Below are positions 1 to 4,874 of a DNA stretch of 4,874 nt, one piece after another; position 1 is the stretch's first letter; every line of letters begins with the position of its first letter. Under the pieces are notes generated by a model, which worked only from the letters and a program-made list of their open reading frames with translations, was not told the DNA's origin and searched no databases. Origin of the DNA: a virus (taxonomy: Duplodnaviria; Heunggongvirae; Uroviricota; Caudoviricetes); IMG/VR virus record IMGVR_UViG_2700989171_000006, one strand, 5' to 3'. The position numbers and the translations under genes were made by a program.

Positions 1-31
1 AGCGGGCTTGTAATGGGTTAAGTGATAACAG

Positions 32-792
32 ATGTCTGGAAATATAGGGGCAAATCCAGCAATCATCAAACTGTCTTGGATAGAAGCCGCAGTGGATGCG
101 CACAAAACGTTAAATTTCGAACCCAGTGGAAGAAAGCGTATTGGCTTTGACGTGGCTGACAGTGGTACAGATAAGTGCGCTAACGTTTACCGTCACGGAT
201 CCGTTGTTTTCTGGGCCGACGAATGGAAGGCCAAAGAAGATGAATTACTGAAGAGCTGCCAGCGTACTTATCAGGCGGCGCTGGAGCGTGAAGCAGATAT
301 TGTTTACGACTCTATCGGTGTTGGTGCGTCTGCCGGTGCTAAATTCTCTGAAATTAACGCTGACCGGAAGAGCGAGAACGCATACGCGCGACGTGTGAAT
401 TACCAGAGGTTTAACGCCGGTGCTGGTGTGCATGAGCCAGATGACGAGTACAACGGCATCCCCAACAAAGACTTTTTCGCAAATCTTAAGGCTCAGGCAT
501 GGTGGCTGACCGTTTCAGAAATACGTTTAACGCCATTAACAACGGAGAACAGTATCCTGTGGATGAGCTGATCAGCATAGATTCTCGTTGTCCGTTGCTT
601 GAAAAGCTGAAACTGGAACTGACAACACCTCATCGTGATTTCGACCGTAACGGACGTGTGATGGTCGAAAGTAAAAAAGACCTCGCAAAACGCGAGATAC
701 CGTCACCAAACGTTGCTGATGCATTCATTATGGCCTTCGCGCCAATCGATACATCGCTGGATATCTGGGAACAGCTGGGGAGACAGGCCTGA
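32..792 (+). CDS. Terminase large subunit, C-terminal nuclease domain; reading frame interrupted (ORF pieces 32..571 and 499..792), so possible pseudogene or indel error
   Basis: The frame of 32..571 encodes motifs typical of the RNase-H-like nuclease domain of large terminases (RIGFDVADSGTDKCA, ADIVYDSIGVGA). The frame of 499..792 encodes the conserved C-terminal acidic motif (SPNVADAFIMAF) and ends in a TGATG stop/start overlap with the next gene. The two pieces are in different frames, with the switch needed between about 490 and 571. Stop codons occur in all three + frames within 11..47, so an upstream ATPase domain cannot be continuous with this ORF as sequenced. Confidence 0.75.
777..782 (+). 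promoter_or_regulatory. Shine-Dalgarno-like GGGGAG for the portal gene
   Basis: GGGGAG lies 9 nt upstream of ATG 792..794. Confidence 0.5.
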
Positions 793-2258
793 TGGCACGA
801 AACAAACAAGCCCTGCGGCGAACTGTGCAGGCCACAGCTGATGGTTATGAGAATTTTATTGCCCGAGTAGGGATGCAGACACCTAACCAGCACTCAGCAT
901 CCACCTACCGGGCTAATTTCACCAGTCGTAACCGCATGCTGGTGGAATGGTCCTATCGTTCATCCTGGATCATCGGCGAAGCAGTCGATGCTATCCCGGA
1001 TGATATGACCCGCAAAGGCATTCGCATCACTTCGGAAATTGATGCAAAAGATCGTGGCATTCTCGAATCACAACTGGATGAGTTGCAAATCTGGGATGCG
1101 CTGAATGACGTGCTGAAATGGTCGCGCCTCTACGGCGGCGCGGTGGGTTTCATCATGATTGAGGGGCAGGCACCAATGACCCCGCTGCGACCCGAAACCA
1201 TCGGTAAGGGCAAGTTTAAGGGGATTCTCCCGCTCGACCGCTGGATGGTCGACCCGGCACTGACCCGCCGCATTAAAGATATGGGGCCGGACCTGGGTAA
1301 ACCTGAGTTTTACGATGTGGTGACCACAGCAACGGGAATTCCTGCCTGGCGCATTCATCACAGTCGCCTGATTCGCTTTGATGGCGTCACGTTGCCATTT
1401 CAGCAGAAGATGACCGAGAACGAATGGGGAATGTCGGTTGTAGAGCGTATCTGGGATCGTCTTACCGCGTTCGACAGCGCTACTGTCGGCGCGGCGCAGC
1501 TGGTCTACAAGGCGCATTTGCGTACCTACAGCGTGGAGAAGCTACGCGAGCTTATCGCACTTGGTGGTCCTGCGTATGAAGCGTTGCTGAAGAATATCGA
1601 CCTGATTCGACAGTTCCAGAGTAATGAAGGCATGACGCTCATGGACTCGCGGGATAAGTTTGAAACCCATCAGTACAGCTTCAGTGGTCTGGATGACATC
1701 CTTTCGCAGTTTGCAGAACAGATTAGTGGCGCTGTTGGTATCCCACTGGTGCGGTTGTTCGGACAGTCCCCGAAAGGATTTTCTACCGGTGATGCAGACC
1801 TTGCCAACTATTACGATCGCATCAGTTCGTTGCAGGAGAGGCGTTTACGTCTTCCGGTGCGGCGGATACTGGACATCATGCATCGTTCGGAACTTGGCAA
1901 GCCGCTGCCGGACGATTTCACGTTTGAGTTTAACCCGCTCTGGCAAATGTCTGATGTCGATCGCTCAACGGTGGCGTTAAACACCACCAACGCAATCAGT
2001 ACGGCGATGGGTGATGGTCTGATGACACTGAAAGCCGCTATGACTGATTTGCGAGAAAATTCTGACGTAACCGGCATAGGGGCATCCATTACCAACGAGG
2101 ACATCGAGAATGCCGAAGATGAAGCGCCGCCCGGCATCGGCGAACCTGATGACGAACCGCAGGAGCCGTCAGGCGGAAATCCGGTATCGAACCAGCCTAC
2201 GCAGGATAGCGAGGGCGGTCGGAGACATCGTAAATGGTCGCTACGATGGTTCAAATGA
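792..2258 (+). CDS. Phage portal protein (DUF1073-like family as recalled)
   Basis: 488-aa ORF with GGGGAG 9 nt upstream. Its ATG overlaps the terminase stop (TGATG at 790..794). It sits in the canonical slot between terminase and the MuF-like gene. Size and sequence character fit portal proteins, and it ends in an acidic low-complexity tail (EDEAPPGIGEPDDEPQEPSGG...). The last ~50 codons overlap the next gene. Confidence 0.8.
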   Translation: MARNKQALRRTVQATADGYENFIARVGMQTPNQHSASTYRANFTSRNRMLVEWSYRSSWIIGEAVDAIPDDMTRKGIRITSEIDAKDRGILESQLDELQIWDALNDVLKWSRLYGGAVGFIMIEGQAPMTPLRPETIGKGKFKGILPLDRWMVDPALTRRIKDMGPDLGKPEFYDVVTTATGIPAWRIHHSRLIRFDGVTLPFQQKMTENEWGMSVVERIWDRLTAFDSATVGAAQLVYKAHLRTYSVEKLRELIALGGPAYEALLKNIDLIRQFQSNEGMTLMDSRDKFETHQYSFSGLDDILSQFAEQISGAVGIPLVRLFGQSPKGFSTGDADLANYYDRISSLQERRLRLPVRRILDIMHRSELGKPLPDDFTFEFNPLWQMSDVDRSTVALNTTNAISTAMGDGLMTLKAAMTDLRENSDVTGIGASITNEDIENAEDEAPPGIGEPDDEPQEPSGGNPVSNQPTQDSEGGRRHRKWSLRWFK

Positions 2259-2892
2259 CAGTATCACGGAAATTATTGCGGCGCTGGAGCGTTACAGTGA
2301 AATCATCACCCCCTGGGCGACAAAGGTCGCGGAAAACTTTACTGCGGACCTAACCCGGCAGAACGAGAAAGTTTGGCGGCAACACAGCAAGAACATCAGT
2401 CGCGAGCTCCGCAATCTTGTGGAAAGCGCTCCTGTGGGCCAGGTGATGCAATCCATCATCGCCGAACAGGTCAAGTACATCAAATCTCTGCCTCTCGAGG
2501 CCGCAGACAGGGTGTACGACATCCAGAACAAAGCGATAGAGGCTGTTGTCACCGGTGGTCGGGCGGAGCAGTTTGCTAAAGAGATTGCATCTACCGGCGA
2601 TGTTGCTAAGTCTAGGGCCGATCTGATTGCCCGAACGGAACTGGGAAGAGCAACGGGCGCGCTGGATATGGCCCGAGCGATAGCTATTGGCTCGGATGGT
2701 TATATTTGGCGTACAGCCGATGATGGCGATGTCCGAGATTCCCACGATCACATGAAAGGTAAATTCGTCCGCTGGGATTCACCTCCAACTTTGGACGGCA
2801 TGACCGGCCACGCGGGCGAGCTGCCAAACTGCCGCTGCTATAAAGAGATCGTGTTTGTTCGCGTTCCATTCGCAATGAAAAGGGCAGCATAA
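2110..2892 (+). CDS. Head morphogenesis / minor head protein, MuF (SPP1 gp7) family
   Basis: 260-aa ORF whose C-terminal half carries MuF-type motifs (IARTELGRATG, WRTADDGDVRDSHDHMKGKF, NCRCY). GAGG lies 9 nt upstream of ATG 2110. The start is uncertain (ATG at 2110, 2119 or 2149), and every candidate lies inside the portal ORF. Confidence 0.8.
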   Translation: MPKMKRRPASANLMTNRRSRQAEIRYRTSLRRIARAVGDIVNGRYDGSNDSITEIIAALERYSEIITPWATKVAENFTADLTRQNEKVWRQHSKNISRELRNLVESAPVGQVMQSIIAEQVKYIKSLPLEAADRVYDIQNKAIEAVVTGGRAEQFAKEIASTGDVAKSRADLIARTELGRATGALDMARAIAIGSDGYIWRTADDGDVRDSHDHMKGKFVRWDSPPTLDGMTGHAGELPNCRCYKEIVFVRVPFAMKRAA

Positions 2893-2895
2893 CCC

Positions 2896-4103
2896 ATGAA
2901 ATACTTTTTTGAGACCAGGCTCGGGGAAACCCGATACCGCCTGGCTGACGGCTCGTTGCTGTGCAAAGACGTGCCGATAGGACGAACAGGTAAGCAGCTC
3001 TATGGTGCTGATGACCTGCCAAAACTGAAACCCGATAAGTTCGTTGAAATAGTCGTCACGCGTTCTCCTGAGCAGGTATTCCATCCGGCCACGCTTGCCT
3101 CATTCGAAGGGATGAGCATCACGATCCTGCATCCTGAAGATGAAAACGGGAATGTGCGGCTGGTAAATCCCGAGAACTGGAAAGTGCTTGCTGTCGGGCA
3201 CCTCCAGAATGTCCGGCGCGGGACGGGTGAGCAGTCTGATTTGATGCTGGCTGACCTTATCGTCAAAGACGAAAGCGCCATTCAGCTTATCGAAGATGGC
3301 CTGCGCGAAGTGTCGTGCGGCTATGACGCGGAGTACGAGCAGACCGAGCCAGGTAAAGCCGAGCAGGTCGATATTACCGGAAACCATGTGGCTCTTGTCC
3401 CTAAAGGCAGAGCCGGAAATCGTTGTGCAATTGGAGACAGAGACACAATGGCAAATCAAAAGAAAAACTGGTGGAACCGCATGCGTGCGGCCATCAAGAC
3501 AGGAGATGCCGACACCATGAACGAACTGGTGGAGTCGGCTCCCGCATCGGTTACAGGAGATGAGGGGGATTTGCCGCAGGGCGTTAATCTCAACATCAAC
3601 CTGTCCCCGCAGCAACCACTACCGGACAAAGCACCAGAGATGGGCGGAGATCCAACCGGCGACAGTGATGATGACCTCAAAACATTACTGAAAGCCCTGC
3701 TGGCTAAGCTGGAAAGAAATGCCACGGGCGATAACGATAATAAGCCTGACGATAATCCGACCGGTGACGGCGAGGACGATGAAGAGGAAACCACGATTAC
3801 TGGTGACTCAGCCTGGCGTGCCGAAGTTATCGTTCCGGGTATCGATCTGAGCCGTAAGATGAAACCGACCGCGTTCAAACGCGAGGTTCTGGCTTCCGCT
3901 GACAAAACGCTGGTTCGCCAGATAGTCGGTGATGCGGATATCCGCAAATTACCGAAACAATCGGTCGACATGGCGTTTAATGCCGTGTCTGAGGTTGCCA
4001 AAGGGCGAAACACCCGCGCCACCACCGGCGATGCACAGCGCCTAAACATGGGCATGACCAGTATCGCTTCCCTGAACAAACAAAACGCTGAATTCTGGGC
4101 AAA
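2896..4103 (+). CDS. Large acidic head-assembly protein with a DUF2213-like N-terminal domain; putative prohead protease/scaffold; 3' end hidden by the N-run
   Basis: ATG 2896 lies 3 nt after the MuF stop, and 402 codons are readable before the N-run. The N-terminal ~180 aa resemble DUF2213 phage proteins as recalled. The C-terminal half is acidic and low-complexity with a helical-looking stretch (LKTLLKALLAKLERN). The gene occupies the protease/scaffold slot between the MuF and capsid genes. The ORF-track extension through X residues to the stop at 4240..4242 cannot be interpreted. Confidence 0.7.
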
Positions 4104-4222
4104 NNNNNNNNNNNNNNNNNNNNNNNNNNNNNNNNNNNNNNNNNNNNNNNNNNNNNNNNNNNNNNNNNNNNNNNNNNNNNNNNNNNNNNNNNNNNNNNNN
4201 NNNNNNNNNNNNNNNNNNNNNN
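4104..4222. other. Run of 119 N (masked or unresolved sequence)
   Basis: Directly visible: the N characters start at 4104 and end at 4222. Confidence 0.99.
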
Positions 4223-4529
4223 CTCTCGCCCGCAGGACTTAACCGTCGAACCGGTGGTCCTTAAATCCGATAACGCCTTCGCTGCCTATGGCCTGGCTGG
4301 TAAATACGATGATGACGGTTTTTTCGTGCCGCTGGCAGATGGTGATACCGCAGACAAGGTGAAGGGGATCTACGTGCGCCCTTATCCGACCACGTCGCAG
4401 CCGGACATGGTTCGCCAGGTGGGAACAGGCAAGAACTTCCCGGGCGACGCCATGAAGCGTGGCTACGTGACCGTTAATCTCGGTTCTGATTTTGATGCCA
4501 GCACTATCAAAAAAGGCGATCTCCACTGA
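4223..4529 (+). CDS. Small head-module protein (possible decoration/cement-type protein), 5' end hidden by the N-run
   Basis: The frame is open from the first unmasked base to TGA 4527..4529, with coding-like codon usage (CTG, CCG, GGC, GTG rich). GTG 4254 has no convincing Shine-Dalgarno, so the start is probably inside the masked region. Gly/Asp-rich composition. Location immediately upstream of the capsid gene. The functional label is a guess. Confidence 0.55.
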
Positions 4530-4562
4530 TGAATCCATCAAAGTGCCTCTGGGTGGATTCAT
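4529..4562 (+). other. Inverted repeat / potential RNA hairpin (9-bp stem ATGAATCCA / TGGATTCAT, extendable to 11 bp with one G-U pair)
   Basis: Arms 4529..4537 and 4554..4562 are exact reverse complements. The stem includes the last base of the upstream TGA stop and the first two bases of ATG 4561. No T-run follows. Confidence 0.4.
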
Positions 4563-4662
4563 GTCCACGTCAGTCAGTGGCAAAAACGTGGTGCTGACCA
4601 ACGCTGAATTCACAGGTGCCGGTGATGCTGACGGCAATGCAGAAATTTCCTGGAAGATTTAA
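4561..4662 (+). CDS. 33-codon ORF (MSTSVSGKNVVLTNAEFTGAGDADGNAEISWKI), either a small independent gene or the frameshifted C-terminus of the preceding protein
   Basis: ATG 4561 to TAA 4660..4662. Codon usage is coding-like. The same frame is open back to 4471 and contains an alternative ATG at 4495. The track omits it because of its short length. Confidence 0.3.
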   Translation: MSTSVSGKNVVLTNAEFTGAGDADGNAEISWKI

Positions 4663-4666
4663 GGAA
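4661..4666 (+). promoter_or_regulatory. Strong Shine-Dalgarno AAGGAA for the capsid gene
   Basis: AAGGAA lies 7 nt upstream of ATG 4674 and overlaps the TAA stop of the small ORF. Confidence 0.6.
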
Positions 4667-4673
4667 CAGACGA

Positions 4674-4874
4674 ATGATTACTTTTGATCAGGCAACCGTT
4701 GACAGCTCTGGTGCCTTTCTCATCGGGGAGCTGGAGAGACTCGACCAGACGCTGAACCTGCCACTGGTGGGGTACACCTGGAGCCGCGATATTCAACTGC
4801 GTGAAGACGCCTCCATCGCAGATGACATTTCCAGCTGGACGAATACCAGCTTCGCCGCTGCGGGTACTGGCGCA
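4674..4874 (+). CDS. Probable major capsid protein, N-terminal 67 codons (runs off the window end)
   Basis: ATG 4674 with a strong SD. The ORF is open to the window end. The N-terminus MITFDQATVDSSGAFLIGELERLDQTLNLPLV... resembles the N-termini of major capsid proteins that follow DUF2213-type genes, as recalled. It sits in the expected slot after the scaffold and small-protein genes. Confidence 0.55.
   Translation, partial: MITFDQATVDSSGAFLIGELERLDQTLNLPLVGYTWSRDIQLREDASIADDISSWTNTSFAAAGTGA

What the first reader, a model, noticed from the sequence alone, without database searches (positions are those of the whole stretch)
4495..4662. A6 run followed by an open +1 frame: frameshift or indel candidate at the end of the small head protein
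The small protein ends ...STIKKGDLH at TGA 4527..4529, but the +1 frame is open from 4471 to TAA 4660..4662 with coding-like codons. Removing one A from the A6 run at 4509..4514 would give a continuous product ...DFDASTIKKAISTDESIKVPLGGFMSTSVSGKNVVLTNAEFTGAGDADGNAEISWKI. This is either an insertion error in a homopolymer, a real frameshift mutation, programmed +1 slippage on AAA AAG, or a separate small gene (ATG 4495 or 4561).
Basis: partly seen in the sequence, partly recalled or inferred. Interest (0 to 1): 0.5.

Follow-up and report, generated by a model that had tools for sequence, protein, structure and literature searches.

The report
17-bp deletion pseudogene, phage cement protein
The "frameshift" is real but ordinary: a 17-base deletion, not a slip in the run of six A's, has split the capsid cement-protein gene of a dead, IS-riddled prophage remnant that is fixed in Shigella flexneri genomes.

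Summary
The sequence features are exactly as described: an A6 run at 4509-4514, TGA at 4527-4529, and a +1 frame open from 4471 to TAA 4660-4662. The proposed cause is wrong. All intact relatives carry the same A6 run (A5G in phage yong1; Mulock has no Lys-Lys there). These relatives are the E. coli prophages and phages 606R2, Omnitron, SEN34, yong1 and Mulock. They also carry 17 extra bases (TCCGGTATACGTTGTCG) just downstream, between window 4519 and 4520. In them, one ORF of 164-168 aa encodes a capsid cement/decoration protein (Pfam PF23982 XM1_gp53 and PF22758 Phage_cement; phrog_563). The window's two ORFs are the N-terminal 116 residues and the C-terminal ~47 residues of that single protein. 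The deletion is a real mutation, not a sequencing error. The junction is identical in two complete genomes, and the truncated 118-aa product occurs on at least 1000 contigs, including S. flexneri 2a strain 301. The downstream ORF is annotated in strain 2457T. The gene lies in a defective prophage remnant: IS2 splits the terminase gene, a 7-nt deletion frameshifts it, and the tail module is missing beyond an IS600 copy. Programmed frameshifting and an independent small gene are both rejected. This is an ordinary pseudogene of low interest.

The parts
4104..4222 (.). Run of 119 N. In near-identical S. flexneri genomes it stands for only 66 nt: the last 13 nt of the DUF2213/Pa193_gp24 gene, an AAA spacer, and the ATG plus first 50 nt of the cement-protein gene.
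   Evidence: Window 4103 corresponds to L003 2335 and window 4223 to L003 2268. The L003 sequence there reads ...ccgtaaagggtaaaaaATGaataatgtatttctg...
4223..4529 (+). 5' part of the cement-protein pseudogene in the original frame: native codons 18-116, then two aberrant codons (Leu-His) and TGA 4527-4529. With the hidden start, the product is 118 aa.
   Evidence: The 118-aa product covers only positions 1-112 of 154 in Pfam PF23982.
4509..4514 (+). A6 run encoding Lys-Lys. It is identical in intact homologues and is not the site of the lesion.
   Evidence: AAAAAA is present in E. coli FDAARGOS_943 and in phages 606R2, Omnitron and SEN34; yong1 has AAAAAG. Mulock has no Lys-Lys at this position.
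4518..4522 (+). Deletion junction. Seventeen nt (TCCGGTATACGTTGTCG in the closest E. coli relative, L001 5298-5314) are missing between 4519 and 4520. The end points are ambiguous by the 2-nt microhomology TC. The deletion removes codons for (D)PVYVV and shifts the frame by +1.
4522..4662 (+). 3' part of the cement-protein pseudogene, now in the +1 frame: native residues STDESIKVPLGG...AEISWKI and the native stop TAA 4660-4662. ATG 4495 and ATG 4561 give the 55-aa and 33-aa 'hypothetical proteins' that some Shigella annotations call here.
4674..4874 (+). Start of the major capsid protein gene (DUF2184 / PF09950 Major_capside), 12 nt after the native stop of the cement gene, as in intact relatives.
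1..57 (+). Right end of an IS2 copy inserted in the terminase large-subunit gene. This is context showing that the prophage is defective.
58..792 (+). 3' part of the terminase large-subunit gene. It is frameshifted near 500 by loss of one copy of a tandem TGGTGGC.

Best explanation
The region is a pseudogene of a phage capsid cement (decoration) protein. In intact relatives one gene of about 507 nt, lying between the DUF2213/Pa193_gp24 head gene and the major capsid gene, encodes a 164-168-aa protein of the XM1 gp53 / E217 gp24 / Pam3 gp6 family. In the lineage that holds this window (Shigella flexneri and very close 'E. coli' isolates), 17 nt were deleted between window 4519 and 4520, at a 2-nt TC microhomology. 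Because 17 is not a multiple of three, the original frame meets TGA after two wrong codons. The remaining 47 codons and the native stop then lie in the +1 frame. The A6 run just upstream is a bystander. The gene sits in a non-viable prophage remnant and is presumably decaying neutrally. Shown here: the deletion, its fixation in many assemblies, the family assignment, and the defective context. Inferred: loss of function and neutrality.
For: DNA alignments show the 17-nt gap and an unchanged A6 run against an E. coli prophage and four phages. The protein alignment shows that six intact homologues of 164-168 aa span both window ORFs without interruption. The intact protein covers Pfam PF23982 positions 1-153 of 154 (E 4e-30), PF22758 positions 7-144 of 146 (E 3e-21) and phrog_563 (E 8e-57). 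The 118-aa ORF covers only profile positions 1-112, and the downstream ORF covers only the C-terminal part: phrog_563 121-164 of 173 (E 2.4e-9) and PF22758 108-144. The exact junction is present in two complete genomes, S. flexneri SFBU1023 and 'E. coli' ECMA0423, and the window is 99.95-100% identical to them. The exact 118-aa product is on at least 1000 contigs, with names that include S. flexneri 2a str. 301. The 33-aa downstream ORF is AAP16173.1 of strain 2457T. The 55-aa ORF is indexed in 105 blocks of the collection, and all eight places shown have the same gene order. Among 5,426 complete E. coli genomes, 335 hold the locus and none matches the junction without a gap. Of these, 332 align at 80-90% identity, as a 17-nt gap predicts, and the 15 rows listed all span 138 nt for the 121-nt query. 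The context is defective: IS2 lies in the terminase gene, a 7-nt frameshifting deletion lies in the terminase gene, and homology to the phage ends after the capsid gene at an IS600 copy with no tail genes. In XM1 gp53 the C-terminal domain (residues 95-160) mediates trimerisation (PMC10457771), so truncation at residue 116 should abolish the trimeric cement function.
Against: Nothing contradicts this reading. Expression of either fragment was not tested. The start of the gene is hidden by N in the window itself and was read from near-identical genomes. Only 15 of the 332 E. coli rows were inspected directly.
Confidence: 0.96

Rival explanations
1. A sequencing or assembly error (a homopolymer insertion in the A6 run, or a spurious deletion) creates an apparent frameshift in an otherwise intact gene.
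For: The window contains an N-run, so it may come from a scaffolded or masked assembly. A second frameshift lies in the terminase gene.
Against: The A6 run has the same length as in intact homologues. The identical 17-nt-deleted junction occurs in two independent complete genomes. The encoded 118-aa product occurs on at least 1000 contigs, including strain 301, and the downstream ORF is annotated in strain 2457T; from general knowledge, both reference genomes were Sanger-sequenced. The terminase frameshift is also shared with L003, which aligns gap-free at 99.95% over window 1-4103.
Confidence: 0.01
2. Programmed +1 ribosomal frameshifting, or transcriptional slippage on the A6 run (AAA AAG), joins the two ORFs into a functional product.
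For: An A-rich run lies 13 nt before the stop, and a 10-bp hairpin (4529-4563) lies downstream.
Against: Intact homologues carry the same A6 run and the same hairpin within a continuous ORF, so neither evolved for recoding. Lys-Lys and the A-run are not conserved in Mulock, and the hairpin is not kept in SEN34. The fold z-score is only -1.37 and there is no Rfam match. From general knowledge, A AAA AAG is a -1 motif rather than a +1 motif, and A6 is shorter than the runs of about 9 or more that give efficient transcriptional slippage. Any slipped product would still lack PVYVV(V), and the prophage cannot make virions.
Confidence: 0.01
3. The downstream ORF (ATG 4495 or 4561) is an independent, functional small gene.
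For: Some Shigella annotations call it as a 55-, 39- or 33-aa hypothetical protein.
Against: Its sequence is the C-terminal part of the cement-protein domain (phrog_563 121-164; alignment). No intact relative has a separate gene there: the cement gene ends 12 nt before the capsid gene. By eye there is no evident Shine-Dalgarno sequence before ATG 4495.
Confidence: 0.02

Closest known systems
Trimeric capsid cement/decoration proteins of the XM1 gp53 / E217 gp24 / Pam3 gp6 family (Pfam PF23982, PF22758; NCBI name 'structural cement protein Gp24'; phrog_563)
   Same: The reconstructed ancestral protein matches both Pfam models end to end, far above their cut-offs (105 and 76.6 bits against 27). 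The gene sits immediately upstream of the major capsid gene, as in intact relatives.
   Different: The copy in the window is broken by a 17-nt deletion. Only the N-terminal, capsid-binding part and about 20 residues of the C-terminal domain remain in frame. From homology to XM1 gp53, most of the trimerisation domain is lost.
Pseudogenes in IS-rich cryptic prophage remnants of Shigella (reductive genome evolution)
   Same: There are IS2 and IS600 insertions, small frameshifting deletions in two genes, loss of the tail module, and fixation across S. flexneri assemblies.
   Different: Nothing notable. This is a typical example.
Programmed frameshift sites (the dnaX A AAA AAG -1 site, the prfB +1 site, the phage tail chaperone G/GT site)
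   Same: The only resemblance is superficial: an A-rich run followed by an open alternative frame.
   Different: The frame change is caused by a DNA deletion downstream of the run. Homologues have no frame change. The required direction is +1, whereas from general knowledge the motif is a -1 type. There is no conservation of the site and no conserved stimulator.

Membership tests
Phage cement protein family (PF23982 XM1_gp53_minor_capsid / PF22758 Phage_cement) | Sequence match to the family profile above the curated cut-off | tested here: met
   The ancestral 168-aa form scores 105 bits (PF23982) and 76.6 bits (PF22758) against a cut-off of 27. The 118-aa truncated form scores 79.1 and 47.2 bits.
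Phage cement protein family (PF23982 XM1_gp53_minor_capsid / PF22758 Phage_cement) | Full-length single-chain domain (N-terminal capsid-binding part plus C-terminal trimerisation part) encoded by one ORF | tested here: not met
   In the window the ORF stops at profile position 112 of 154 and the remainder is in the +1 frame. The window therefore holds a pseudogene of the family, not a functional member.
Phage cement protein family (PF23982 XM1_gp53_minor_capsid / PF22758 Phage_cement) | Gene position in the head module, directly upstream of the major capsid gene | tested here: met
Phage cement protein family (PF23982 XM1_gp53_minor_capsid / PF22758 Phage_cement) | Trimers bound at three-fold and quasi-three-fold axes of the capsid | not testable with these tools
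   Known for XM1 gp53 and Pam3 gp6 from cryo-EM. It is not applicable to a defective prophage.
Programmed ribosomal frameshift site | The two-frame arrangement and the slippery site are conserved in homologues | tested here: not met
   All six intact homologues examined have a single continuous ORF, and the A-run is not conserved in Mulock.
Programmed ribosomal frameshift site | A stimulatory element (a conserved RNA structure, or a Shine-Dalgarno-like or stop-codon context) at a defined spacing | tested here: not met
   There is no Rfam match. The local hairpin is also present in unshifted homologues, is not kept in SEN34, and the fold z-score is -1.37.
Defective (cryptic) prophage remnant | Essential virion or packaging genes are interrupted or missing | tested here: met
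   IS2 lies in the terminase gene, a 7-nt frameshift lies in the terminase gene, a 17-nt frameshift lies in the cement gene, and the tail module is absent beyond IS600.

The most novel reading that the evidence does not exclude
The retained 118-aa N-terminal fragment (the capsid-binding, beta-tulip-like part without the trimerisation domain) might be expressed from the remnant. It could then act as a dominant-negative 'capsid poison' against infecting relatives of this phage, which would make it an exapted superinfection-exclusion factor. Nothing here tests expression. Its wide fixation in S. flexneri is equally explained by clonal descent.
Probability: 0.02. Interest if true: 0.4.

Novelty: already known. 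Interest (0 to 1): 0.05.

Why it matters
It matters little biologically. It is one more inactivating lesion in a decaying prophage of Shigella flexneri. Its practical value lies in annotation. The 118-aa 'bacteriophage protein' (in one record 'putative Cation transport ATPase') and the 33-55-aa 'hypothetical proteins' called in many Shigella records are two halves of one cement-protein pseudogene. The case also shows that a homopolymer next to a frame change need not be its cause.

Tried and rejected
1. The A6 run as the site of the indel was rejected: its length is identical in intact homologues.
2. Sequencing error was rejected because the junction recurs in complete genomes and in at least 1000 contigs.
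3. Programmed frameshifting or slippage was rejected.
4. An independent downstream gene was rejected.
5. The reverse polarity, a 17-nt insertion in the other genomes, was rejected because distant phages (SEN34, yong1, Mulock) all carry the segment within a continuous ORF.
6. The NCBIfam scan gave no hit for any form of the protein, even though RefSeq names it 'structural cement protein Gp24'.
7. A single-sequence search of PDB chains gave only a chance hit (E 0.53), so no direct structural mapping of the deleted residues was made.
8. Structure prediction was not run. The intact protein is not encoded in the window, and the question did not justify a large database search.

Full report
**Observation.**
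- AAAAAA lies at 4509-4514.
- The 0-frame ORF ends ...STIKKGDLH at TGA 4527-4529.
- The +1 frame has a stop at 4468-4470, is open from 4471, and ends at TAA 4660-4662.
- ATGs lie at 4495 and 4561.

One correction concerns the start of the upstream ORF. The mechanical ORF list starts it at GTG 4254. The window has 119 N at 4104-4222, and the real start lies under them. In the near-identical Shigella flexneri genome L003 that stretch is only 66 nt. It holds the end of the preceding DUF2213/Pa193_gp24 gene, an AAA spacer, and the ATG plus first 50 nt of the small head gene.

**What the gene is.** The window is a phage head module:
- the IS2 right end (1-57);
- the 3' part of the terminase large-subunit gene (58-792);
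- the portal gene (792-2258);
- the Mu F-like head morphogenesis gene (2149-2892);
- the DUF2213/Pa193_gp24 gene (2896 into the N-run);
- the small gene in question;
- the start of the major capsid gene (ATG 4674).

Megablast of 4223-4874 against 5,426 complete E. coli genomes finds the locus in 339 of them. In every listed row the 652-nt query spans 669 nt of the record, so the window is 17 nt short. The feature under the match is annotated 'structural cement protein Gp24' in most listed rows, followed by a DUF2184 protein. Four E. coli phages (vB_EcoM-606R2 and relatives), Citrobacter phage Omnitron, Salmonella phage SEN34 and Hafnia phage yong1 show the same arrangement.

**The lesion.** DNA alignment places the missing 17 nt between window 4519 and 4520.
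- Relatives read ...ATCAAAAAAGGCGA[TCCGGTATACGTTGTCG]TCTCCACTGATGAA...
- The window reads ...ATCAAAAAAGGCGATCTCCACTGATGAA...
- The end points can slide by the two bases TC, which is a minimal microhomology.
- The A6 run is the same length in the window and in the intact genes (A5G in yong1), so it is not where the frame changes.

At the protein level, six intact homologues of 164-168 aa read ...DFDASTIKKGDPVYVVVSTDESIKVPLGGF...AEISWKI in a single ORF. The window's 0-frame product matches residues 1-116 and then adds Leu-His-stop. The +1 ORF matches from STDESIKV to the native C-terminus and the native TAA. The ancestral junction is KKGDPVYVVVSTDESIK.

**Family.** The intact 168-aa protein gives these matches:

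| Model | Positions matched | E-value | Bits (cut-off) |
|---|---|---|---|
| Pfam PF23982, XM1 gp53 minor capsid protein | 1-153 of 154 | 4e-30 | 105 (27) |
| Pfam PF22758, structural cement protein E217 gp24/Pam3 gp6 | 7-144 of 146 | 3e-21 | 76.6 (27) |
| phrog_563, virion structural protein | 4-163 of 173 | 8e-57 | 192.6 |

The truncated ORF covers only profile positions 1-112 of PF23982. The downstream ORF covers phrog_563 positions 121-164 (E 2.4e-9) and PF22758 positions 108-144. NCBIfam gave no hit. A single-sequence PDB search gave only a chance hit.

In cryo-EM structures, XM1 gp53 and Pam3 gp6 form trimers on the three-fold and quasi-three-fold axes and reinforce the capsid. The N-terminal domain of XM1 gp53 (residues 1-95) binds the major capsid protein, and its C-terminal domain (95-160) mediates trimerisation (PMC10457771; PMC9942802). 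By homology, truncation at residue 116 removes most of the trimerisation domain. This last step is an inference.

**Real mutation, not an error.**
- An exact search for the 35-nt junction in one genome per species finds it in two complete chromosomes: S. flexneri SFBU1023 (CP182556.1) and 'E. coli' ECMA0423 (CP178302.1, 4.44 Mb).
- The window is 99.95% identical to SFBU1023 without gaps over 1-4103, to ECMA0423 over 521-4103 where that locus ends, and 100% identical to both over 4223-4874.
Source names include 'putative bacteriophage protein [Shigella flexneri 2a str. 301]'.
- The 33-aa downstream ORF is AAP16173.1 of S. flexneri 2a str. 2457T, and the 55-aa version is on 102 contigs.
- Look-up of the 55-aa ORF returns S. 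flexneri assemblies with an identical gene order. In draft assemblies the locus is typically a ~6-kb contig bounded by IS fragments.
- No complete E. coli RefSeq genome matches the junction without a gap. Of 335 with the locus, 332 align at 80-90% identity, as a 17-nt gap in 138 columns predicts.

**Context: a dead prophage.**
- Window 1-57 is the right end of IS2, inserted in the terminase gene. In S. flexneri L009 the Terminase_3 N-terminal part lies on the other side of the IS.
- At about window 500, one of two tandem TGGTGGC copies present in the E. coli relative is missing. This frameshifts the terminase C-terminal part. The intact reading KAQAWWLVADRFRNTF is seen in L001, and phage 606R2 also has a continuous frame there.
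- Homology to the phage stops shortly after the capsid gene at an IS600 copy, so the whole neck and tail module is absent.

The cement-gene deletion is thus one of several inactivating lesions in a remnant that cannot form particles. Neutral decay is the natural explanation, though it is an inference.

**Rivals.**
- **Programmed +1 frameshifting or transcriptional slippage.** The same A-run sits in a continuous ORF in intact relatives. Lys-Lys is not conserved in Mulock. Rfam finds nothing in the window. The 10-bp hairpin at 4529-4563 is also present in unshifted homologues, is not kept in SEN34, and the local fold is unremarkable at z = -1.37. From general knowledge, A AAA AAG is a -1 motif and A6 is too short for efficient transcriptional slippage.
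- **An independent downstream gene.** The ORF is simply the tail of the cement domain, and no intact relative has a separate gene there.
- **The opposite polarity, an insertion in the other genomes.** The more distant phages all carry the segment in frame.

**Verdict.** There is a real frameshift mutation, but it is a 17-nt deletion downstream of the A-run rather than an event within it. The feature is an ordinary pseudogene whose fragments are already present in public Shigella annotations. Interest is low.

Noticed in passing
window 1-57: This is the right terminal end of IS2, 100% identical to the IS2 end in E. coli L001 610-667. It is inserted in the terminase large-subunit gene. In S. flexneri L009 the N-terminal Terminase_3 part lies upstream of the IS. 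In the E. coli relative L001, an IS2 copy abuts the terminase gene at a different point, about 215 nt further upstream.
   Followed up: partly
window ~493-506 (ORFs 32-571 and 499-792): A second frameshift lies in the terminase gene. One copy of a 7-nt tandem repeat is missing: L001 1324-1337 reads TGGTGGCTGGTGGC. The terminase C-terminal part is therefore split into two overlapping ORFs. The lesion is shared with the complete S. flexneri genome L003.
   Followed up: yes
window 4104-4222: The run of 119 N does not preserve length. Near-identical genomes have 66 nt here: the DUF2213 stop, an AAA spacer, and the first 50 nt of the cement gene. It is either a scaffold gap of arbitrary size or a mask. 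It hides the true start codon of the gene under study.
   Followed up: yes
L003 (reverse strand) ~7365-8000; L009 9405-10561: The prophage remnant ends just after the major capsid gene, inside the next small gene (STY1053 family), at an IS600 copy. No neck or tail genes follow. Mu-like transposase fragments, dcuC and pagP lie beyond.
   Followed up: partly
window 4529-4563: A 10-bp inverted repeat (ATGAATCCAT ... TGGATTCAT) lies just after the premature stop. It is also present in intact E. coli and phage homologues but is not kept in SEN34. The local fold z-score is -1.37. It is probably a coincidence of the coding sequence.
   Followed up: partly
window 2149-2258: The portal gene (792-2258) and the Mu F-like head morphogenesis gene, as called in S. 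flexneri assemblies (2149-2892), overlap by 110 nt in different frames. The same overlap is annotated in the E. coli relative, where that gene has an internal stop. Phage 606R2 annotates a later start without an overlap. The true start was not resolved.
   Followed up: no
protein P0001: One public record names the truncated 118-aa cement-protein fragment 'putative Cation transport ATPase [Shigella flexneri]'. This is an evident misannotation.
   Followed up: no
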